Positions 1-40,797 of a DNA stretch of 40,797 nt are shown piece by piece. The stretch is taken from the IMG/VR virus record IMGVR_UViG_3300045988_016629, positions 1 to 40,797 of that record, one strand, 5' to 3'. Below the pieces are notes generated by a model, which saw only the letters and a list, made by a program, of their open reading frames with translations, searched no databases and was not told the DNA's origin. The position numbers were made by a program, and so were the translations under genes. The stretch is from a virus. Position 1 is the stretch's first letter. Every line of letters begins with the position of its first letter.

Positions 1-55
1 TTTCTATAAAATATTTACTGGATTTGTTGTCAAGGTCTGTCAGCTTGACGTTTTG
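1..55. repeat. Terminal overlap copy 1 (identical to 40743-40797)
   Basis: tttctataaaatatttactggatttgttgtcaaggtctgtcagcttgacgttttg occurs at both ends. A 55-nt exact repeat is typical of a k-mer overlap in a circular assembly. Confidence 0.9.
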
Positions 56-88
56 TCGAAAAGCAACACCTAGTAATGACAGACTAAC

Positions 89-119
89 GACTGACAAGGG
101 AGTCGAACCCCTGACAGCC
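89..119 (-). ncRNA. tRNA-like acceptor/T-arm minihelix B (no D or anticodon arm)
   Basis: Minus strand reads GGCUGUCAGGGG-UUCGACU-CCCUUGUCAGUC. The 12-position stem has 9 Watson-Crick pairs, 2 G-U pairs and 1 U-U mismatch. The 7-nt loop fits the tRNA T-loop consensus GG-UUCGANU-CC. The G-U pairs become A-C mismatches on the plus strand. Confidence 0.45.
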
Positions 120-189
120 AACAAGAATAAAGAATTTGAATTATAGCGACAGTTACGCTGTTATCACCTCCAAACTTAATGTAATTAAT

Positions 190-220
190 GACTTATAGCG
201 GATTCGAACCGCTACAAGCC
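190..220 (-). ncRNA. tRNA-like acceptor/T-arm minihelix A (overlaps the stop codon of the 235-aa gene)
   Basis: Minus strand reads GGCUUGUAGCGG-UUCGAAU-CCGCUAUAAGUC. The 12-bp stem has 10 Watson-Crick and 2 G-U pairs and a canonical T-loop. It is homologous to element B, with three compensatory pair changes. Confidence 0.45.
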
Positions 221-919
221 CATATAAATCGCTTTATATAACGCACGTTTAACACTTTCCTTTTCAAGACCTAGATCACATTTGGTGCGATATTCTAAAT
301 AGATACGATCAACTTCGCTATCTAGGCTTTCAGGCCATTCGTACTTATTAAATACGTGCTTAGCTATCTTTCCGAATAATTCTCTTGAAAGAATTCCTTC
401 TAGTTGGACTACTTTTCGAGGTGTTAAAACGCCAATTTCTGTATATATTGTATTGATGGCTGTGCAAATTGTTTTAGCTTGTTGATTTGAACAGCCTTTT
501 ACTTCCATGATGTAGTTAGCAAAGCAGTTAGGATGTGCTGCTCTTAACTCTTGGATTTCATTTCGATATTGAAGGAAAAGTTCCTCGGTAAGTCCTGCGT
601 TAGTTTTATCACTATCTGTCTTACATGACCCACGTGGAGCAGAATAGTGCTCTGATAGATACTCTTGTAAGTCGTTAACAAGACCTTCCGTAAGGTACTC
701 GCTCATATCATCCAACGTTGAGAAGGACAGTTTAGAACGCTCTTTAATCACATTGTCAAACCTTTGACAATATTTTCTAGCTTTCGCTCTATCGCAAACT
801 TTCGTTTCCATTATATGTTTAGTGAGTTTTCTAGGGTATTTCTCTTTCAATGCGTTAAATTCAACCACAAGCCTTTGATGTAACTCTTTAGTCAGTCCTG
901 CATACTCAAAACGCTTCAT
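212..919 (-). CDS. Hypothetical phage protein with an internal tandem duplication (two ~100-aa repeats)
   Basis: 235-aa ORF. AGLTKELHQRLVVEFNALKEKYPRKLTKHIMETKVCDRAKARKYC aligns with AGLTEELFLQYRNEIQELRAAHPNCFANYIMEVKGCSNQQAKTIC. Confidence 0.7.
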   Translation of the reverse strand: MKRFEYAGLTKELHQRLVVEFNALKEKYPRKLTKHIMETKVCDRAKARKYCQRFDNVIKERSKLSFSTLDDMSEYLTEGLVNDLQEYLSEHYSAPRGSCKTDSDKTNAGLTEELFLQYRNEIQELRAAHPNCFANYIMEVKGCSNQQAKTICTAINTIYTEIGVLTPRKVVQLEGILSRELFGKIAKHVFNKYEWPESLDSEVDRIYLEYRTKCDLGLEKESVKRALYKAIYMGL

Positions 920-932
920 TGCCCTATTCCTT

Positions 933-1460
933 TCAACCTTTGGAATCCATATCTGTGAACACGATTTGTTTGGGTAAAATTTTATTGCAAACGTAAACGC
1001 TTTGAAAATTAGGATTATCTCTAACTGTCATACTTTCATCAAAGAATTTCATGCGTCCTTTTGGAATTAGCAACTCAAAATTATTGTTTCTAAACAATTC
1101 GAATCTTGTTTTACTGTCAAATAATCCGTTGCTATTCATGATTAATGCAAAAGGTAAATCTAGTTCGTACATTTTCCGAAAAATTGCGTCACGCTTACTG
1201 AAGGGAGGGTTACTTACAACACACTCAACTCCTTTAGGAGCTTTTTCATATTCAAAGAAATCTTGTCCTGTTTCGATATGTCCAAAAGTCACTTCGTATC
1301 CATTATCTTTTAACAACTTCACAAATTCACTATACTCTTTATCAAACGGACACCAGATATGCTTATATTGCTTGATGTATGGAATAATAATCTCAACCGC
1401 ATAATCTGGGGTATAGTATTCATCGCCTTTGCTTGTTCTTATTTGTTTACTAAAATACAT
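933..1460 (-). CDS. Orphan DNA methyltransferase (probable N6-adenine, NPPF motif IV)
   Basis: 175 aa with a SNPPFS catalytic motif, EYYTP near the N-terminus and a WCPFD putative AdoMet pocket. No restriction partner gene is nearby. Confidence 0.75.
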   Translation of the reverse strand: MYFSKQIRTSKGDEYYTPDYAVEIIIPYIKQYKHIWCPFDKEYSEFVKLLKDNGYEVTFGHIETGQDFFEYEKAPKGVECVVSNPPFSKRDAIFRKMYELDLPFALIMNSNGLFDSKTRFELFRNNNFELLIPKGRMKFFDESMTVRDNPNFQSVYVCNKILPKQIVFTDMDSKG

Positions 1461-1766
1461 CTAATTCCCCCTCCTTTTCAAATAGCTTGGAACATCATCT
1501 CCGACCTGCACACTATCGTATTGTTCCTTACTGACAAGGAATTTACCATAAGAACCGCAATCGATTGTGTAGAGCTTCCCTACCATAGATTTTCCAGTAA
1601 CCTTGCCATGTAATTCCACGAAATTGTCAGCCTTATGCACCACAATAGCTTCCACAGGTCTATTTGTCACTCTTATGATGGTAGTCACATTGATTACTAT
1701 TGAAATTAGTAGTAGAGCAGTTAAAAACCTTAGCTGGTTATCTCGTTTTGACAAAGTTGTCATCAA
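1461..1766 (-). CDS. Small membrane-anchored phage protein
   Basis: 101 aa with an N-terminal hydrophobic helix (LRFLTALLLISIVINVTTII). Tightly packed with its neighbours. Confidence 0.6.
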   Translation of the reverse strand: MMTTLSKRDNQLRFLTALLLISIVINVTTIIRVTNRPVEAIVVHKADNFVELHGKVTGKSMVGKLYTIDCGSYGKFLVSKEQYDSVQVGDDVPSYLKRRGN

Positions 1767-2250
1767 TCATTACTCCTTGCCTGTCCTTAATGTTGTTATA
1801 AGCGATTTTAAGGCACTCCTCAACGTCGTAACCGAGTTGTAGGCATAATACCACTAGGGTAACAATAGAATCGCCTATAGCGTCTTTTAGAGCCATTTCT
1901 GGGTCATCAAAATCGTTTGGTTTTAGAAATACATCTCTAATCTCTCCAACTTCTTCAGTGACTTTCATCCATTCGATTTTAGGATTTCCTTTATCCAGTC
2001 CGTGACTGATAGCCCACTCGTTAATCTTTGCGATTAGATCGGTGATACTGTCATTTTCAGTTGTATCAAGACCTAACAGATAACCAACGCTAACACCGAA
2101 AAAGTCTGCTAGTTTTTTGGCTTCCCTTCTACTGATTTTACTGGTTCCATGTTCCCATTTAAGAACAGTCAGTTTTGACACTCCTATTTTTTCAGCCAAC
2201 TCGACTCTTGTAATTTTCCGTGATTCTCTTAACAGATAAAGTCTATTCAC
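1738..2250 (-). CDS. XRE-type HTH domain fused to a MazG-like all-alpha NTP pyrophosphohydrolase domain
   Basis: N-terminus ITRVELAEKIGVSKLTVLKWEHG is an XRE HTH. C-terminus KVTEEVGEIRD ... KDAIGDSIVTLVVLCLQLGYDVEECL matches the MazG EExxE/DxxGD metal-binding helices. Confidence 0.65.
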   Translation of the reverse strand: MNRLYLLRESRKITRVELAEKIGVSKLTVLKWEHGTSKISRREAKKLADFFGVSVGYLLGLDTTENDSITDLIAKINEWAISHGLDKGNPKIEWMKVTEEVGEIRDVFLKPNDFDDPEMALKDAIGDSIVTLVVLCLQLGYDVEECLKIAYNNIKDRQGVMIDDNFVKTR

Positions 2251-2796
2251 TTATTCCACCTCTTTAACCTCTACTCCCTCACAGTCAAATACCCATCCAA
2301 AACCAGCTTCTTCTAGTTCTTTGCGAGTGTGGCTCGTATGGCACATTTTACTTTCTTTCTCACACCACAAATACCAATTTTCACGTGTCCAGTTGCAACA
2401 TAAATGTTTATTAATATTTAACCCTTTAAAAGTAACCTTGTATCTAGGATCTTTCTCTACCTCATATCCAAACTGGTGCATATTGATGAGTGTTTTGATA
2501 GCTCCATTCTCATAAGCCTGAGACATCCAAGCTTTGAATTCGTCCTTCATAAAACCATCAAAAATAGATAGCCAATCTTTAAAATCTTTTACTTCGTCTC
2601 TGTTATTAAAATCTACAACATCATGGATACATTGAAATAGGTATTCTTCAAAGCTATCTTTATGTTCCTCATACCAATCAGCCACATATTGTGGCACTAC
2701 AGGTTTAGGAATAATTTCACCATATAATTCCTCAGCGTGTTCTATTGATATGTATCCTTCTCTTGCAATCTTCTTAACTGCTTCATCTTTTGTCAT
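2251..2796 (-). CDS. Streptococcal phage early protein (DUF1642-like)
   Basis: 181 aa. C-terminus KVTFKGL...WYLW...HTRKELEEAGFGWVF resembles the DUF1642 family as I recall it. Confidence 0.55.
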   Translation of the reverse strand: MTKDEAVKKIAREGYISIEHAEELYGEIIPKPVVPQYVADWYEEHKDSFEEYLFQCIHDVVDFNNRDEVKDFKDWLSIFDGFMKDEFKAWMSQAYENGAIKTLINMHQFGYEVEKDPRYKVTFKGLNINKHLCCNWTRENWYLWCEKESKMCHTSHTRKELEEAGFGWVFDCEGVEVKEVE

Positions 2797-2807
2797 TTAA
2801 TTTCTCC

Positions 2808-3200
2808 TTAATCGATATTTTTAAGTTTGACCGGAACCCACATTTTAGGGTTGTAATTTATTTCATATTTGTATTTTGAAACATTCGGTACTTCAACATC
2901 TTCTACTACATAAGAGACATTATCTGACAAACCGATAATATGTTTTTGATATTTATTCTTACCATTTTCTACAACAATTTCGAGTTGTTTATCATCAGTA
3001 TCAGCATTGATAGACATCCTACCGCTCATTTGGAACATTATGTCATTTGTAATGGCATCAATAACTGTTACTTTCCTAAAAACATTGAAGTTATCAGACT
3101 CTAGCGATAAATTCCCAGATACTCTATCTGCCTCTGAACAACCAGTTAAAAACAATAGTCCACATGCAGCAATAATTGTCATTTTACTTAATTTATTCAT
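2808..3200 (-). CDS. Phage-encoded lipoprotein
   Basis: Signal peptide plus lipobox MTIIAACGLLFLTG-C. The mature ~110-aa part is predicted to be beta-rich. Confidence 0.75.
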   Translation of the reverse strand: MNKLSKMTIIAACGLLFLTGCSEADRVSGNLSLESDNFNVFRKVTVIDAITNDIMFQMSGRMSINADTDDKQLEIVVENGKNKYQKHIIGLSDNVSYVVEDVEVPNVSKYKYEINYNPKMWVPVKLKNID

Positions 3201-3386
3201 CTATTCATCCTCTTTATAAATCACCAACGCTGATGTTCTGATAATATATTCTTTGCTCGATACGGTTTGATATTTAATATCAACGATTTCAATATCTGGG
3301 TTTTCTTTCAAAAAGTCATTAATTAAATCATCAATTTTTTCATCATAGCAGATACTTGTCCAAAATTCTCGTGTTCTAATTGCCAT
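3201..3386 (-). CDS. Hypothetical small protein (61 aa)
   Basis: ORF abuts its neighbours. Its start codon sits directly after the upstream stop. Confidence 0.5.
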   Translation of the reverse strand: MAIRTREFWTSICYDEKIDDLINDFLKENPDIEIVDIKYQTVSSKEYIIRTSALVIYKEDE

Positions 3387-3542
3387 TTATTTCACCTCAA
3401 CCATTTCTACTTTATATAATCTTGAATTTCTATATTTAACACCTCGTAGATGATGCAATCTGTTGATAGCTTCATCCTTATTCTCATAAATTTCTACATC
3501 GTCTTCCATATTGTCGTAATAAACAATAACTTTATATCTCAT
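3387..3542 (-). CDS. Hypothetical small protein (51 aa, below the ORF-track cutoff)
   Basis: Hand translation gives MRYKVIVYYDNMEDDVEIYENKDEAINRLHHLRGVKYRNSRLYKVEMVEVK. ATGA overlap with the upstream ORF, and its stop abuts the next ATG. Confidence 0.45.
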   Translation of the reverse strand: MRYKVIVYYDNMEDDVEIYENKDEAINRLHHLRGVKYRNSRLYKVEMVEVK

Positions 3543-4909: not shown

Positions 4910-6430
4910 TTACTGAGTAACCATAACCACTACTGCTGCTTTCTTCGCCTCGTTTTCGTCCCAATTAAAATTGAAATCATGCCAATAAACTGGCTTATCT
5001 TTAGTTGGGTTAAAAAAATCAAGAGGTTTTTGTCTATCTTTTATCCAACCAACTGGTAAATTCTGTGCCAACTCTTTTTCAAAGTTAGATTTTTTAGGGA
5101 TAGTATGATTACCCTCGTGACACCATGAGCGGTATACATCCCACAAGAATCTAACTGGAATACGAGTGGAAACGACATCTGACAAATATTCATTAAGGAA
5201 TTTATAAACTGTGTTATTTTCTTCCTTGAATTCTTGCATACGTTCTTGTGTCGCTTTTGGTTCACTGAATTTATCGAAATCTAAATTAATAGCTTTCCAG
5301 AGCACATACTCTAAAACTTCTTTACGATTGATGTAATCATCTTTGATTGCCCAATTATCATCGTTGATGCCAAATGTTTTCTTGAATGGGATAATCACGA
5401 TACGTCGATATGTCCCGTTTGATTTGTTTTTAAACACTGGCATAGCGTTGGTAGACTGGATAACTGTTTTCTTAAATTGTGCTAAGTAGGGGTTTTCTCC
5501 TTTTTTCTCAATCGAAACAGGTTCACCAGTAACAACTGAGTTAAAATTAGAAGATTCATCTACGTATATACCAGCTTGGACATCATCCCCGATGATAACT
5601 GTCTTACCTTCGATAATGGCAAGACCGAAACGCTCTGAAAATTGGTTAAGTTTCAAGGGAGCTACGTTTTTTAATCCAACAAGATTGCTAATTAACTGTT
5701 GAAACGTACCTTTACCGTCATTACCGTTACCGACCAACCAAATTGATTTTCGATAAGAGTGGTTACCATTCAGCGATGCTGCAATGACTTGCCATAGTAA
5801 TTCGACAAGCTCACTATCACCACTCATTAAATCAAGCAACCAACTATCAACATCCCATCCATTTATTGTTGGTTTAGGGGCGTTCTCAACTAATTCTGTT
5901 TCAATTGTACTGAAGTTAATAAACTTATAGTCAAACGATAACAGTTTCTTCTTTCGCTTATCATAGATGCCATTCTTAACGAGTATAAAGCGTCTTACGT
6001 CTCTATACTCTGGTTCAAAGTCCATATACATGTTATTATATTCATATTCCCTGCTCATGTTTGATAGCAAGAATAGAACATTGCGGCATTTTGTTTCATT
6101 GAATGTGGGTTCTAAGACATAGATAAGCTGGTAGGCATATCTGTAATCTTTTTGGTAGTATCCACGCTCTGGATCATATATAGCTACTTTCCCATTTTCG
6201 AGGGTAATAACATGAGTGTATTTATTTAAACCTTTAGCTACTGCTAATTCTGGCAATGCCTTTGGTTCTTTTTTATCTGGATTTTCTTCCTTGAATTTTT
6301 CAAACCAGTCGTTTCGGTAGGCTTTAAGCTTATTCTTAATTCCCTCTCTGCTGCTCGGTTTACCTGGTGAGAGACTAGAGCTTGCAAATTGTTCTCTGTA
6401 ATAATCGAAATCAATCGTTGTCAAGTCCAA
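4910..6430 (-). CDS. Primase-helicase, P4/D5-type NTPase (phage/plasmid primase C-terminal domain)
   Basis: 506 aa with Walker A WLVGNGNDGKGTF, followed by a D5_N/primase-C-like region. Confidence 0.85.
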   Translation of the reverse strand: MDLTTIDFDYYREQFASSSLSPGKPSSREGIKNKLKAYRNDWFEKFKEENPDKKEPKALPELAVAKGLNKYTHVITLENGKVAIYDPERGYYQKDYRYAYQLIYVLEPTFNETKCRNVLFLLSNMSREYEYNNMYMDFEPEYRDVRRFILVKNGIYDKRKKKLLSFDYKFINFSTIETELVENAPKPTINGWDVDSWLLDLMSGDSELVELLWQVIAASLNGNHSYRKSIWLVGNGNDGKGTFQQLISNLVGLKNVAPLKLNQFSERFGLAIIEGKTVIIGDDVQAGIYVDESSNFNSVVTGEPVSIEKKGENPYLAQFKKTVIQSTNAMPVFKNKSNGTYRRIVIIPFKKTFGINDDNWAIKDDYINRKEVLEYVLWKAINLDFDKFSEPKATQERMQEFKEENNTVYKFLNEYLSDVVSTRIPVRFLWDVYRSWCHEGNHTIPKKSNFEKELAQNLPVGWIKDRQKPLDFFNPTKDKPVYWHDFNFNWDENEAKKAAVVVMVTQ

Positions 6431-9022: not shown

Positions 9023-9698
9023 CTAAATCACCAAATTTAAAGAGGTCTTCAATCTTGCAAGCTGTTCGATTATCGAGGCGATTCTTAGCGTAAGTACCTT
9101 CGCTGCCTTCCAAAATAAGTCCACGTGCACCTGTTTTAGCATTAACCACAATACGTCCAACGACATCGGTAAGCCCTAATAGTTGGTTGAGTACACTAGC
9201 CCTAATCTGTGGTACATACTGAGTTAAAATCTGACCAGTTTCTAAATTGAGTTCGTGGGTGTCTTCCCAAGCTGTCACATAAATATTGATAGGCTTGCTG
9301 TAGATAACAGTCAATACTCTTAAGAAGTAATTTGTCCATTGAGAGTAATGTTGAAGCTCATTACTGATACCGTTCTTTGACTTGCGACCTTGCTCAATAA
9401 ACCAATCTGATTGAAAACTTGAAATGTTATCGATAACAAGGTTTTCATAGTTTTTGATTAAGTTATCTGCTTGGGTTAGAAACTCTGTGATAAATTCAGT
9501 TGGATGCTCACGGTCAAAATCTATGATATCCACGTTCTCAGTGCCAGCTAGCACTTTTGAAGAATTATCTAACGACAACACCAAAGTTTTTCCAGGCATG
9601 TTTTTTATCAGGGACGTTTTCCCTAATCCAGCCTTACCATAAATCAGTATTCGCCAATTCTTGGTTCGCTGGATATCTTTTGCTCTGATAATTCTCAT
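8997..9698 (-). CDS. AAA_24/RecA-like ATPase
   Basis: 233 aa with P-loop IYGKAGLGKTS and Walker B-like LVIDNISS. Confidence 0.8.
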   Translation of the reverse strand: MRIIRAKDIQRTKNWRILIYGKAGLGKTSLIKNMPGKTLVLSLDNSSKVLAGTENVDIIDFDREHPTEFITEFLTQADNLIKNYENLVIDNISSFQSDWFIEQGRKSKNGISNELQHYSQWTNYFLRVLTVIYSKPINIYVTAWEDTHELNLETGQILTQYVPQIRASVLNQLLGLTDVVGRIVVNAKTGARGLILEGSEGTYAKNRLDNRTACKIEDLFKFGDLDGTKELPE

Positions 9699-40179: not shown

Positions 40180-40578
40180 TTAGTCCAGATATTTCTCAGC
40201 TCGTCTTAATTTAACATAGTATGTAGCCTTACTAATACCAAAGCGCTCGCAAATTTGCCAGATACCTATCTGATCGATGTATACCATTTGAAGTAAAGAC
40301 CTAGCATCTACATCCTCAACGTTTGCTATCTTTCTACGAAACTCTTGCTTCTGTTTGATAGCTTCTGCTGTGAAGCGTTCTAATTCTTCACGAGCCGTCA
40401 TTAATTCCACATAGATATCATCTTTGCTTTTACGTTTACCACCTTTAACCATGTCATTATGCATAGCACAAGACGTCACTTTAAGCGCTTGTGATTCCAA
40501 TCTTTTGATTTGTTCTATCTGACTGTCAATATATCTATCAAGTGCCTTGATTTTTTGAAGCCGTTCAACCGTTCTCAT
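40180..40578 (-). CDS. Late-gene transcriptional activator (sigma-70 region-4-like HTH; RinA/ArpU/DUF1492-type)
   Basis: 132 aa. The C-terminus ARSLLQMVYIDQIGIWQICERFGISKATYYVKLRRAEKYL is a region-4-type HTH. It sits directly upstream of the packaging genes. Confidence 0.7.
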   Translation of the reverse strand: MRTVERLQKIKALDRYIDSQIEQIKRLESQALKVTSCAMHNDMVKGGKRKSKDDIYVELMTAREELERFTAEAIKQKQEFRRKIANVEDVDARSLLQMVYIDQIGIWQICERFGISKATYYVKLRRAEKYLD

Positions 40579-40742
40579 AAATTGTCTTTCCTTTTTTATG
40601 GTATAATAATATTATCCGATTTTAAAACAGTTCCACGACTTCCGTCTGGGGCTTTTTTTGTATGCCACCTCCTATAGTTTAAATTCCAGTCTTGCTACCA
40701 GCAATACAAGACTAGACCAAAAAGTATGTATTGGTTTCCTCG

Positions 40743-40797
40743 TTTCTATAAAATATTTACTGGATTTGTTGTCAAGGTCTGTCAGCTTGACGTTTTG
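40743..40797. repeat. Terminal overlap copy 2 (identical to 1-55)
   Basis: Exact 55-nt match to the window start. Confidence 0.9.

What the first reader, a model, noticed from the sequence alone, without database searches (positions are those of the whole stretch)
89..220. Two homologous tRNA acceptor/T-arm minihelix mimics with compensatory substitutions, in a phage that has no tRNA genes
On the minus strand, which is the transcribed strand here, 220->190 reads GGCUUGUAGCGG UUCGAAU CCGCUAUAAGUC and 119->89 reads GGCUGUCAGGGG UUCGACU CCCUUGUCAGUC.

- Structure: each is a 12-bp helix, the length of a stacked acceptor stem (7) plus T stem (5). The 7-nt loop and closing GG/CC match the tRNA T-loop consensus (G53 U54 U55 C56 R57 A58, C61). 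There is no D arm or anticodon arm, and the 5' acceptor strand abuts the T stem directly.
- Covariation: three stem positions differ between the copies by compensatory double changes (C-G vs G-C, U-A vs C-G, U-A vs G-C).
- Conservation: the termini (GGCU...AGUC) and a G2-U71 wobble are the same in both.
- Strand specificity: every G-U pair becomes an A-C mismatch on the plus strand, so the structure exists only in minus-strand RNA.
- Flanks: both copies are followed by N-UUA...AUUAC...AGGUG, which suggests a diverged ~100-nt tandem unit. Neither has a U-tract, so they are not intrinsic terminators.

Possible roles (inference): RNase P/RNase Z/CCA-enzyme processing signals at the 3' end of the early transcript, or decoys for tRNA-acceptor-targeting defence toxins (for example AbiEii/MenT-type nucleotidyltransferases or acceptor-stem nucleases). 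I know of no description of such elements in dairy streptococcal phages.
Basis: partly seen in the sequence, partly recalled or inferred. Interest (0 to 1): 0.8.

Follow-up and report, generated by a model that had tools for sequence, protein, structure and literature searches.

The report
Miniaturised tRNA genes in dairy phages
Two short hairpins in this Streptococcus thermophilus phage are stripped-down tRNA genes, keeping only the acceptor stem and T-arm; they are conserved by compensatory mutation across many dairy-bacteria phages and probably serve as cutting marks for the host's tRNA-trimming enzymes, which has not been tested.

Summary
On the transcribed (minus) strand, 220->190 and 119->89 fold into acceptor/T-arm "minihelices" with a canonical T-loop. 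Copy 1 has 12 bp.

- **Conservation:** all 27 distinct homologous intergenic regions from S. thermophilus phages carry one to three copies. In 19 distinct variants, 92% of cells pair, 8 of 12 pairs show double changes, and there are 43 G.U against 0 A.C. This indicates a sense-strand RNA structure.
- **Invariant features:** the T-loop, G2, C3-G70 and "UU" after a purine discriminator.
- **Origin:** related minihelices occur in S. salivarius-type phages, Lactococcus P335 phages and an unrelated myophage. In P335 phages the same slot holds either a true tRNA-Lys(UUU) (CAP, TP901-1) or only the minihelix, with the same trailer and terminator. The elements are therefore internally deleted tRNA genes.
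- **Best explanation (inferred):** they are RNase Z/RNase P/CCA-enzyme substrates that punctuate phage polycistronic RNA. Streptococcal tRNA genes are all CCA-less and RNase Z-dependent.
- **Not excluded:** a decoy role, a larger regulatory RNA, or decaying remnants.
- **Prior description:** no Rfam family matches and no published description was found.

The parts
190..220 (-). Minihelix copy 1: 12-bp acceptor/T-stem stack with the T-loop UUCGAAU. The 5' arm encodes the last two codons (GGC UUG) and the TAG stop of the DUF1340 gene.
   Evidence: -18.9 kcal/mol, z = -5.6; 59.6 bits; covariation.
186..189 (-). Discriminator-like A189 followed by U188 U187 A186, which takes the place of CCA. The predicted RNase Z cut is between 189 and 188.
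   Evidence: U74 U75 are invariant and A76 nearly so in A1. Trailers are GTTA/ATTA/GTTG in 19 of 19 variants. The cut site is inferred.
212..919 (-). DUF1340 gene (235 aa, function unknown), the last gene before the elements. Its stop codon lies inside copy 1.
   Evidence: PF07067, E = 5.6e-133; phrog_1814, unknown function.
140..171 (-). Spacer between the copies. It holds an orphan Shine-Dalgarno-like GGAGGUGAU (171->163, 18 nt after the predicted cut) and a promoter-like GTGATA-16-TATAAT (167->140).
   Evidence: The -10 box is kept in only some relatives. No function is shown.
89..119 (-). Minihelix copy 2: 11 of 12 bp (U.U at pair 6) with the T-loop UUCGACU. Its acceptor GGCUGUC/GUCAGUC resembles that of the phage tRNA-Lys (GGCUGCA/CAGUC).
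   Evidence: -17.3 kcal/mol, z = -4.4; 58.6 bits.
85..88 (-). Discriminator-like G88 followed by U87 U86 A85. The predicted RNase Z cut is between 88 and 87.
   Evidence: The cut site is inferred.
77..84 (-). Trailer box GUCUGUCA, complementary to the loop of the hairpin at 29-49.
   Evidence: three sequence classes keep an 8-9-nt Watson-Crick complement at the same offset; the pairing appears in the minimum-free-energy fold.
29..49 (-). Hairpin GUCAAG-CUGACAGAC-CUUGAC. Its stem covaries among phages and its loop (42->35, UGACAGAC) is complementary to 84->77.
   Evidence: four pairs with changes on both sides. The TP-J34 record annotates the equivalent 65-nt stem-loop.
40579..40742 (-). The rest of the same intergenic region; the window is a circle cut here, and 1-55 repeats 40743-40797. 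It is a conserved structured leader that includes the hairpin AGUCUUG/CAAGACU and a GGAGGUGG...UAUACC pairing.
   Evidence: (55-bp overlap).
40180..40578 (-). Gene for a DUF1492 (LtrB-family) late-transcription activator, the first gene downstream of the elements.
   Evidence: PF07374, E = 1.9e-41; 100% identical to the Sfi21 protein; LtrB family, PMC3753634.

Best explanation
The two hairpins are miniaturised tRNA genes. They derive from a phage tRNA gene (probably the tRNA-Lys(UUU) lineage seen in related phages) that lost its D arm, anticodon arm and variable loop by internal deletion. What remains is the 7+5-bp acceptor/T-stem stack, a canonical T-loop, a purine 'discriminator' and a UU(A) trailer.

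They are transcribed as part of the phage's polycistronic RNA, between the DUF1340 gene and the LtrB late-activator gene. I propose that the host tRNA-maturation enzymes treat them as pre-tRNA:
- RNase Z cuts after the discriminator (after A189 and G88).
- RNase P may cut at the 5' side.
- The CCA-adding enzyme may tail the product.

The elements would thereby punctuate the transcript. The upstream mRNA would end in a stable tRNA-like helix. The downstream RNA (the leader of the late-activator gene) would start 2-4 nt before a conserved trailer/loop pairing that could protect its new 5' end. A roughly 32-35-nt minihelix RNA would be a by-product.

**Shown:** the structure, its conservation, its strand specificity and its tRNA-gene ancestry.
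**Inferred:** the cleavage, the CCA addition and the effect on mRNA stability and timing.
For: 1. **RNA-level selection.** In 19 distinct variants, 92.1% of cells pair against 76% in shuffles (0 of 500 shuffles reach the observed value). Eight of 12 pairs change on both sides, and slid-register controls pair only 39-59%. The census is 167 Watson-Crick, 43 G.U and 0 A.C, so the sense strand pairs at 92% and the antisense at 73%. Minus-strand folds are about twice as stable as plus-strand folds.
2. **Prevalence.** All 27 distinct homologous regions carry at least one copy.
3. **What is kept matches what tRNA enzymes read.** The kept features are a 12-bp stack, the T-loop G53 U54 U55 C56 G57 A58 .. 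U60 C61, G2 and C3-G70. B. subtilis RNase Z contacts only the acceptor stem and T-arm (PMC7479834).
4. **Trailer.** U74 U75 follow the discriminator in 19 of 19 variants. C74 C75 inhibit RNase Z. All Streptococcaceae tRNA genes are CCA-less and are cut by RNase Z right after the discriminator, leaving a 5' U on the trailer (PMC8549757).
5. **Same slot as true tRNA genes.** In Lactococcus P335 phages the alt-terS gap holds one of three things: tRNA-Lys (CAP; Rfam 55.3 bits), tRNA-Lys plus two degenerate tRNA-like units (TP901-1), or only a minihelix (ul36-like L078, L145). All have the same A|UUAU... trailer and terminator. The 5' acceptor strand GGCUGCA and the 3' end CAGUC are the same in the tRNA-Lys and the X1 minihelices; the tRNA's 3' strand lacks one residue.
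6. **Independent contexts, always on the coding strand.** One is a myophage in which the order is terminator, minihelix, 17-18 nt, Shine-Dalgarno sequence and ATG, between the tail-tube gene and the next gene.
7. **Control.** The same sequence pattern in cellular genomes gives 0 of 120 hits with at most one mismatch. The viral contigs give 36 of 107. Hits inside real tRNAs have at least three mismatches.
8. **Co-transcription.** No sigma-70 promoter or strong terminator lies on the sense strand of the single-copy form, so the late-activator gene is probably co-transcribed.
Against: - No transcript ends, cleavage or CCA addition were observed; no experiment or RNA-seq data were available.
- RNase P cleavage at copy 1 (and at the X2 relatives) would remove the DUF1340 stop codon and create a non-stop mRNA. 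Either RNase P does not act there, or this is a cost or a form of regulation.
- Many variants carry one to three internal U.U or U.C mismatches in the acceptor-like half.
- The elements are dispensable in part. Some phages have a 16-nt deletion that destroys copy 1 (L006, L009, L038). S. salivarius-type phages L042-45 have none upstream of the late-activator gene.
- Archaeal RNase Z needs a mature 5' end. Activity of bacterial short-form RNase Z on natural minihelices embedded in mRNA is not documented in what I could read.
- The trailer pairing with a downstream loop could hinder RNase Z rather than serve it.
Confidence: 0.5

Rival explanations
1. The released minihelix RNA is itself the functional product. 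It would be a decoy or sponge for tRNA-directed host factors, for example acceptor-end-modifying abortive-infection toxins (AbiEii/MenT-type nucleotidyltransferases), acceptor-stem nucleases, or RNase Z, the CCA enzyme or EF-Tu.
For: - It has the same structural mimicry as the best explanation.
- The neighbouring or ancestral full-length genes are tRNA-Lys(UUU). From my own knowledge, this is the isoacceptor most often targeted by anticodon nucleases, so this slot looks like an anti-defence slot.
- In some phages a TATAAT box upstream and a hairpin plus U-run downstream make copy 2 look like a small stand-alone gene.
Against: - A minihelix lacks the anticodon arm that the known tRNA-Lys nucleases recognise.
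- The promoter-like box is missing in many relatives and in all single-copy phages.
- The element also sits between tail genes of a myophage, directly upstream of a ribosome-binding site. That placement suits mRNA processing better than sRNA production.
- The neighbouring proteins give no defence-related hits.
Confidence: 0.15
2. The elements are decaying remnants of tRNA genes. They persist only as generic stable hairpins (3'-end protection or weak terminators) and need no recognition by tRNA enzymes.
For: - Ancestry from tRNA genes by deletion is clear.
- Copies are lost, fused and duplicated freely.
- Some relatives lack them.
- Internal mismatches are common.
Against: - A generic hairpin does not need an invariant seven-base T-loop with G53-C61, nor invariant U74 U75, while its stem sequence turns over.
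- Helix length stays at 12 bp in at least six sequence families.
- The minihelix itself has no U-tract.
Confidence: 0.15
3. The minihelix is one domain of a larger cis-acting structured leader RNA that controls expression of the late activator, for example through attenuation, antitermination or mRNA-stability switching. In that case the T-loop would serve as a structural motif, not as tRNA mimicry.
For: - Trailer nt 77-84 pair with the loop of a downstream covarying hairpin in three sequence classes: GUCUGUCA/UGACAGAC, ACCAGUCA/UGACUGGU and UAAACCAGA/UCUGGUUUA. The null probability of an 8-nt or longer complement is 0.044 per class.
- This pairing is mutually exclusive with the small hairpin plus U-run.
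- Further conserved hairpins fill the roughly 300 nt up to the late-activator start codon.
Against: - Lactococcal and myophage minihelices lack this pseudoknot and the late-activator context.
- Copy 1 of this window lacks it as well.
- T-loops used as purely structural modules are not normally attached to a 12-bp stack with a discriminator and a UUA trailer inherited from a tRNA gene.
Confidence: 0.13
4. The elements act at the DNA level. Candidates are conserved micro-homology 'linkers' for modular recombination at the early/late boundary, a protein-binding inverted repeat, or a single-stranded-DNA hairpin (sso-like).
For: - Hybrids evidently arose by recombination between copies within or next to the shared GGTTCGA core.
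- The region is a module boundary where DUF1492-type and ArpU-type regulators are swapped.
Against: - The 43 G.U against 0 A.C census and the weaker antisense fold argue against a duplex or cruciform constraint.
- Compensatory stem changes are not required for recombination linkers.
- Orientation always matches transcription.
- An attP-type origin is unlikely, because the 3' halves differ among phages of the same host.
Confidence: 0.07

Closest known systems
Synthetic tRNA acceptor/T-psi-C minihelices used as minimal substrates of RNase P, tRNase Z and the CCA-adding enzyme (my own knowledge: McClain, Guerrier-Takada & Altman 1987; Shi, Weiner & Maizels 1998; Nashimoto 1999)
   Same: Both have a 12-bp coaxial acceptor plus T stem, a seven-base T-loop, an unpaired discriminator, and no D or anticodon arm.
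   Different: The synthetic ones are laboratory constructs that usually end in CCA. The elements here are natural, conserved genomic elements embedded in phage mRNA, with a UUA trailer.
True phage tRNA-Lys(UUU) genes in the same genomic slot (Lactococcus phages CAP and TP901-1; S. salivarius-type phages L042-45)
   Same: The position is the same (around the late-activator gene, upstream of terS). The 5' acceptor strand GGCUGCA and the 3' end CAGUC match, with G2.U71 and C3-G70. The A|UUA trailer and the following terminator hairpin are the same.
   Different: The true genes have full cloverleaves (55-71 bits against the Rfam tRNA model). The window's elements score 16.8 bits and cannot decode.
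mascRNA and MEN-beta tRNA-like elements (Rfam RF01684), mitochondrial tRNA punctuation, and MHV68 tRNA-miRNA units (my own knowledge)
   Same: In each case a tRNA-like fold inside a longer transcript recruits RNase P and/or RNase Z to define RNA ends. CCA is added to the released small RNA.
   Different: These are eukaryotic or organellar, and most keep a cloverleaf. The match to RF01684 is sub-threshold only (20.4 against 42.5 bits, for L145). Processing is unproven here.
Precursor of the C4 antisense RNA of phages P1 and P7, and other non-tRNA RNase P substrates of phages (my own knowledge: Hartmann et al. 1995)
   Same: A phage RNA mimics the acceptor/T-arm region so that a host tRNA enzyme matures it.
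   Different: C4 is a regulatory antisense RNA of enterobacterial phages with no canonical T-loop. There is no sequence or context relation.
tRNA-like domain of tmRNA
   Same: Both have an acceptor stem plus T-arm without an anticodon arm.
   Different: tmRNA has a G3.U70 alanine identity, an encoded or added CCA, pseudoknots and a tag reading frame. Here the wobble is G2.U71, there is no reading frame, and ARAGORN finds no tmRNA.
attP cores carrying the 3' end of a host tRNA gene
   Same: Both contain a T-arm plus a 3' acceptor strand in a phage genome.
   Different: attP copies must match one host tRNA exactly, lack the 5' acceptor strand, and sit beside the integrase gene. These elements vary by compensatory change among phages of one host, carry both strands, and are also present in virulent phages.

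Membership tests
tRNA gene (Rfam RF00005 / ARAGORN) | Cloverleaf with D arm and anticodon arm; score at or above the gathering threshold of 29 bits | tested here: not met
   ARAGORN finds 0 genes in the window. The Rfam tRNA model gives 16.8 bits with both internal arms deleted, and nothing reaches gathering.
tRNA gene (Rfam RF00005 / ARAGORN) | Seven-bp acceptor stem stacked on a five-bp T stem, with the T-loop consensus GUUCRANYC | tested here: met
   G53, U54, U55, G57, A58, U60 and C61 are invariant. C56 is kept in 18 of 19 variants.
Acceptor/T-arm minihelix substrate of RNase P, RNase Z and the CCA enzyme (functional class) | 12-bp coaxial helix, T-loop, unpaired residue 73, and a 3' trailer without C74 C75 | tested here: met
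   (trailers RUUA or RUUG). Helix length is conserved in at least six sequence families.
Acceptor/T-arm minihelix substrate of RNase P, RNase Z and the CCA enzyme (functional class) | Actual cleavage at -1/+1 and after N73; CCA addition | not testable with these tools
   This needs RACE or small-RNA-seq, or in vitro assays.
tmRNA | tRNA-like domain with G3.U70, plus a tag reading frame and pseudoknots | tested here: not met
   ARAGORN tmRNA search is negative. In Rfam, only an 11.7-bit T-arm fragment hit appears in a relative. The wobble is at 2.71, not 3.70.
Intrinsic (Rho-independent) terminator | GC-rich hairpin immediately followed by a U-tract | tested here: not met
   No U-tract follows either helix. 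The scan calls no terminator at these sites. A separate weak hairpin plus U-run follows copy 2 in relatives.
mascRNA/menRNA tRNA-like processing element (RF01684) | Match to the family model at or above 42.5 bits | tested here: not met
   Nothing is found in the window. The lactococcal relative L145 gives 20.4 bits, E = 3.3. The resemblance is functional analogy only.
attP tRNA-gene fragment | Exact identity to the 3' end of one host tRNA gene; located next to the integrase gene | tested here: inconclusive
   No host genome was available for direct comparison; the single genome scan was saturated by unrelated tRNAs. Against membership: the elements vary among phages of the same host and are present in virulent phages.

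The most novel reading that the evidence does not exclude
After RNase Z/P processing and CCA addition, the phage releases abundant 32-35-nt minihelix RNAs. These would act as decoys or sponges for host factors that read the tRNA acceptor end, such as abortive-infection nucleotidyltransferases of the AbiEii/MenT type, acceptor-stem nucleases, or the tRNA-maturation enzymes themselves. This would make them an RNA-only anti-defence or host-takeover device derived from a tRNA gene.

A variant reading is that the minihelix plus the trailer/loop pseudoknot forms an exonuclease-resistant 5' cap for the late-activator mRNA.
Probability: 0.15. Interest if true: 0.85.

Novelty: new variant of a known kind. 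Interest (0 to 1): 0.62.

Why it matters
These phages (Sfi21, O1205, TP-J34, TP901-1, ul36 and their relatives) are the reference models of dairy phage biology. Even so, this conserved RNA element at the early/late boundary appears never to have been interpreted.

If the host tRNA-processing machinery cuts phage mRNA at these marks:
- It would be a bacterial-virus counterpart of mitochondrial tRNA punctuation and of MALAT1/mascRNA processing.
- It could account for the multiple 5' ends that have been suspected to arise from processing of S. thermophilus phage late transcripts.
- It would link phage gene timing to RNase Z, an enzyme that streptococci degrade under oxidative stress.
- It would offer a compact natural processing module for polycistronic constructs in lactic acid bacteria.

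It also documents how phage tRNA genes decay: not to nothing, but to the minimal piece that tRNA enzymes still recognise.

Tried and rejected
**Alternative folds and known families**
- *Alternative tRNA-like fold:* the Rfam alignment pairs GAUUUAU (230->224) with the 3' strand. I rejected it because variants GAUUUCA, GAUUGCU and the hybrids break that pairing while the direct 12-bp helix is kept.
- *Known RNA families:* Rfam was searched over the whole window at gathering threshold, over both ends at E-value threshold, and over eight related loci. Only true tRNAs in relatives were found.
- *AcrIIIA1 protein-RNA anti-CRISPR*: it uses host tRNA fragments and is not related.

**Local signals**
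- *Stand-alone small RNA gene for copy 2:* the promoter-like GTGATA-16-TATAAT is not conserved.
- *STAB-SD idea:* an orphan GGAGGUGAU lies 18 nt after the predicted cut, and the myophage has the same spacing to its real ribosome-binding site. I kept this only as an observation.
- *ARAGORN 'tRNA-Ala' over an X1 minihelix in L125:* a poor, spurious cloverleaf.

**DUF1340 as an RNA-related protein**
- Pfam, PHROGs, PADLOC, a PDB sequence search, and AlphaFold (pLDDT 79) with Foldseek gave nothing.

**Database scans**
- *Host of the myophage loci L079/L126:* megablast found no match. tblastn found only distant Firmicute myophages.
It was useful only as a negative control.
- *Metagenome scan with the flank motif:* eight of 22 loci (six distinct regions) were unrelated chance hits.

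**Literature**
No description of these elements was found.
- The Sfi19/Sfi21 transcription papers and Pellegrini et al. 2003 are not held.
Full report
**1. What the window is**

The window is a complete, circularly closed phage genome. Bases 1-55 repeat at 40743-40797.
- Its DUF1492 protein is 100% identical to that of Streptococcus phage Sfi21.
- The first kilobase matches 197 S. thermophilus phage records, best O1205 at 94%.
- Genes near the finding all lie on the minus strand. In transcription order they are: DUF1340 (919->212), a ~375-nt non-coding region that runs through the window's cut point (211->1, then 40742->40579), DUF1492 (40578->40180), HNH, terS and terL.
- DUF1492 is the LtrB family of late-transcription activators (PMC3753634).

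**2. The observation**

- Copy 1 (220->190) is a perfect 12-bp helix with two G.U pairs.
- Copy 2 (119->89) has 11 of 12 pairs, with a U.U mismatch at pair 6 that was overlooked.
- Minus-strand energies are -18.9 and -17.3 kcal/mol (z = -5.6 and -4.4). The plus strand gives -10.1 and -7.8 kcal/mol.
- ARAGORN finds no tRNA or tmRNA. Rfam finds nothing at gathering thresholds. The tRNA model gives 16.8 bits for copy 1 with both inner arms deleted.
- Copy 1 overlaps the last two codons and the TAG stop of DUF1340.

**3. Conservation and covariation**

I fetched orthologous regions without reference to the hairpins, in three ways: through the DUF1340 protein, through a conserved downstream motif, and through DUF1492 homologues.
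- After removing chance hits, 27 distinct homologous regions remain. Sixteen have one minihelix, ten have two and one has three.
- Some phages have a 16-nt deletion that destroys copy 1. Others have a single hybrid copy that keeps the DUF1340 stop as TGA.
- On 19 distinct variants, 92.1% of cells form standard pairs, against 76% in shuffles (0 of 500 shuffles reach the observed value). Eight of 12 pairs change on both sides. Sliding the 3' arm by 1-3 columns drops pairing to 39-59%.
- The pair census is 167 Watson-Crick, 43 G.U, 0 A.C and 18 other, mostly U.U. The structure is therefore selected on the transcribed strand only.
- Invariant positions are G2, C3-G70, G52 G53, U54 U55, G57 A58, U60, C61 C62, and U74 U75 after a purine at 73.
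- A covariance model of the family finds only the two sites in the window (59.6 and 58.6 bits; next best 10.5). It also finds at least one site in every S. thermophilus-type locus.

**4. A wider family**

I scanned IMG/VR for the invariant skeleton GC-N7-GGTTCGANTCC-N7-G-NN-RTTA and then asked whether the arms pair.
- Of 107 hits, 36 have at most one mismatch over 12 bp.
- Hits inside ARAGORN-predicted tRNAs have at least three mismatches in 32 of 33 cases.
- The same pattern in cellular genomes gave 0 of 120 hits with at most one mismatch.

New sequence families appeared:
- **X1:** GGCUGCAGGUGG/CCAUUUGCAGUC, upstream of DUF1492 in phages that lack DUF1340.
- **X2:** AGCUAGUGAGGG/CCCU(UA/CG)CUAGCU, in S. 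salivarius-type phages. It again overlaps the DUF1340 stop codon, but in a different register.
- **X3:** AGC(UU/AA)GU(U/C)AGGG/CCCUGACUUGCU, in Lactococcus P335 phages.
- **A myophage pair (L079/L126):** the element sits between the tail-tube gene and the next gene. The order is terminator hairpin, minihelix, 17-18 nt, then Shine-Dalgarno sequence and ATG.

In every context the T-loop-sense strand is the coding strand.

**5. Origin**

In Lactococcus P335 phages, the gap between alt (the late activator) and terS holds different occupants:
- Phage CAP has an annotated tRNA-Lys(UUU) (Rfam 55.3 bits).
- TP901-1 has the same tRNA-Lys (unannotated in AF304433) plus two degenerate tRNA-like units.
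- ul36-like genomes have only the X3 minihelix.

All share the left flank ...gaatttgcttcata, the trailer A|UUAU(A/U)UUUUAUUAC and a 9-bp terminator hairpin just before the terS ribosome-binding site.
- TP901-1 unit 2 reads AGCAAGU-[53 nt]-UUAGGGUUCGACUCCCUGACUUGCU-A. L145 reads AGCAAGU-CAGGGUUCGACUCCCUGACUUGCU-A, which amounts to the same unit with its interior deleted.
- The 5' acceptor strand GGCUGCA of the tRNA-Lys is identical to that of the X1 minihelix (GGCUGCA/UGCAGUC), and its 3' strand, one residue shorter, ends in the same CAGUC. It is close to the window's copy 2 (GGCUGUC/GUCAGUC), including G2.U71 and C3-G70.
- S. salivarius-type phages that lack the minihelix carry a bona fide tRNA-Lys(UUU) (71.3 bits) just downstream of DUF1492, also followed by A|UUAC, a hairpin and a U-run.

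I conclude that the elements are internally deleted tRNA genes. The step from shared acceptor sequence to common descent is an inference.

**6. Mechanism**

What selection keeps is the part of a tRNA that the end-processing enzymes read.
- B. subtilis RNase Z contacts only the acceptor stem and T-arm (PMC7479834).
- C74 C75 are anti-determinants for RNase Z.
- All tRNA genes of Streptococcus and Lactococcus are CCA-less. RNase Z cuts them directly after the discriminator; in the worked example this leaves a trailer beginning with U (PMC8549757).
- Uracils downstream of the discriminator activate B. subtilis RNase Z (Pellegrini et al. 2012, Structure 20:1769). The paper's existence is confirmed through a citation; its content is from my own knowledge.
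- From my own knowledge, minihelices are classical minimal substrates of RNase P and the CCA-adding enzyme.

The most economical reading is that the host machinery processes these elements as pre-tRNAs, and so cuts the phage polycistronic RNA at fixed points. In the single-copy phages there is no sigma-70-like promoter or strong terminator on the sense strand between DUF1340 and the late-activator gene. The late-activator mRNA may therefore be generated by this processing.

**7. The trailer/loop pairing**

A further regularity fits this reading. Trailer nucleotides 77-84 are complementary to the loop of a downstream hairpin in three different sequence classes:
- GUCUGUCA/UGACAGAC in the window (84-77 with 42-35);
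- ACCAGUCA/UGACUGGU in X2;
- UAAACCAGA/UCUGGUUUA in X1.

The null probability of an 8-nt or longer complement is 0.044 per class. In the window's class the stem of that hairpin covaries.

After an RNase Z cut, the new 5' end would lie 2-4 nt from this pairing. From my own knowledge, this geometry protects Gram-positive mRNAs from 5'-end-dependent decay (Sharp & Bechhofer 2005). All of this paragraph's functional reading is inference.

**8. Caveats**
- An RNase P cut at copy 1 would delete the DUF1340 stop codon.
- Many variants have internal U.U or U.C mismatches.
- Copies are lost in some lineages.
- No transcript data were available.

**9. Rivals**

The rivals are a decoy or sponge small RNA, a functionless remnant kept as a generic hairpin, a domain of a larger regulatory leader, and a DNA-level element. 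They are weighed in their own sections. The G.U/A.C asymmetry and the invariant T-loop and trailer argue most strongly against the DNA-level and generic-hairpin readings.

**10. Prior knowledge**
- The TP-J34 GenBank record annotates bare 'stem_loop' features that coincide with the T-arm of copy 2 and with the long trailer hairpin, without interpretation.
- Ten full-text searches found no description of tRNA-like or minihelix elements in these phages. The library lacks most subscription papers, so the absence is not proof.

**11. Verdict**

This is a real, conserved, strand-specific RNA element of tRNA-gene origin, and a natural acceptor/T-arm minihelix.
- It is best classed as a new variant of a known kind (tRNA-like processing elements).
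- Its function is inferred, not shown.
- Interest is 0.62.

Noticed in passing
window 1-55 and 40743-40797: The window is a circularised complete genome with a 55-bp terminal duplication, so the finding's intergenic region continues at the far end of the window. The DUF1492 protein is 100% identical to that of phage Sfi21.
   Followed up: yes
window 77-84 with 35-42 (minus strand); hairpin 29-49: The trailer box GUCUGUCA, right after copy 2, is complementary to the loop UGACAGAC of a downstream hairpin whose stem covaries. Two other phage groups keep the same arrangement with different sequences (ACCAGUCA/UGACUGGU and UAAACCAGA/UCUGGUUUA). This is a probable pseudoknot of unknown role, and it is mutually exclusive with a small hairpin plus U-run.
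   Followed up: partly
window 163-171 (minus) and about 40660-40668 (minus): There are two strong Shine-Dalgarno-like sequences (GGAGGUGAU and GGAGGUGG) with no start codon behind them. The first lies 18 nt after the predicted RNase Z cut of copy 1. In myophage loci L079/L126 the real ribosome-binding site lies 17-18 nt after the minihelix. The second is predicted to pair with UAUACC just upstream of the late-activator gene's ribosome-binding site.
   Followed up: partly
L155 (TP901-1, AF304433) 1447-1521, 1601-1688 and about 1755-1815: TP901-1 carries an unannotated tRNA-Lys(UUU) (Rfam 55.3 bits) and two degenerate tRNA-like units between alt and terS. By sequence this would place them in the leader of the late operon. 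They are followed by a 9-bp terminator-like hairpin directly upstream of the terS ribosome-binding site.
   Followed up: partly
L042-L045, 3679-3750: S. salivarius-type phages from human metagenomes have a bona fide tRNA-Lys(UUU) (71.3 bits) between DUF1492 and HNH. The called HNH start codon overlaps it, so that gene start is probably mis-called.
   Followed up: partly
L079 (minus strand, about 9451-9492) and L126 (about 5767-5808): An unrelated myophage of unknown host has a minihelix between the tail-tube gene and the next gene, after a terminator hairpin. The two versions differ by many compensatory changes.
   Followed up: partly
L071 and L085, about 160 nt upstream of the X1 minihelix: The non-coding stretch upstream of the X1 minihelix contains further hairpins that covary between the two loci (for example GAGUGC..GCACUC and CUUCGAG..CUCGAAG against CUAAGG..CCUUAG). 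The minihelix may be part of a larger structured RNA there.
   Followed up: no
window 212-919 (minus): DUF1340 is an all-helical protein made of two similar halves. AlphaFold gives pLDDT 79, Foldseek finds no PDB match (best E = 3.6), and there is no defence-system hit. Its function remains unknown.
   Followed up: yes
L046 (Streptococcus sp. chromosome), 1-3420: Here a DUF1492 gene sits next to a D5_N/DUF5906 primase and a HicB-like gene, outside a full prophage. This looks like a phage satellite that carries its own late activator. No minihelix is present.
   Followed up: no
window 433-501 (minus): There is a sub-threshold Rfam hit to the histone 3' stem-loop (21.7 bits against a cut-off of 34, E = 0.0035) inside the DUF1340 coding region. 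I consider it chance.
   Followed up: no
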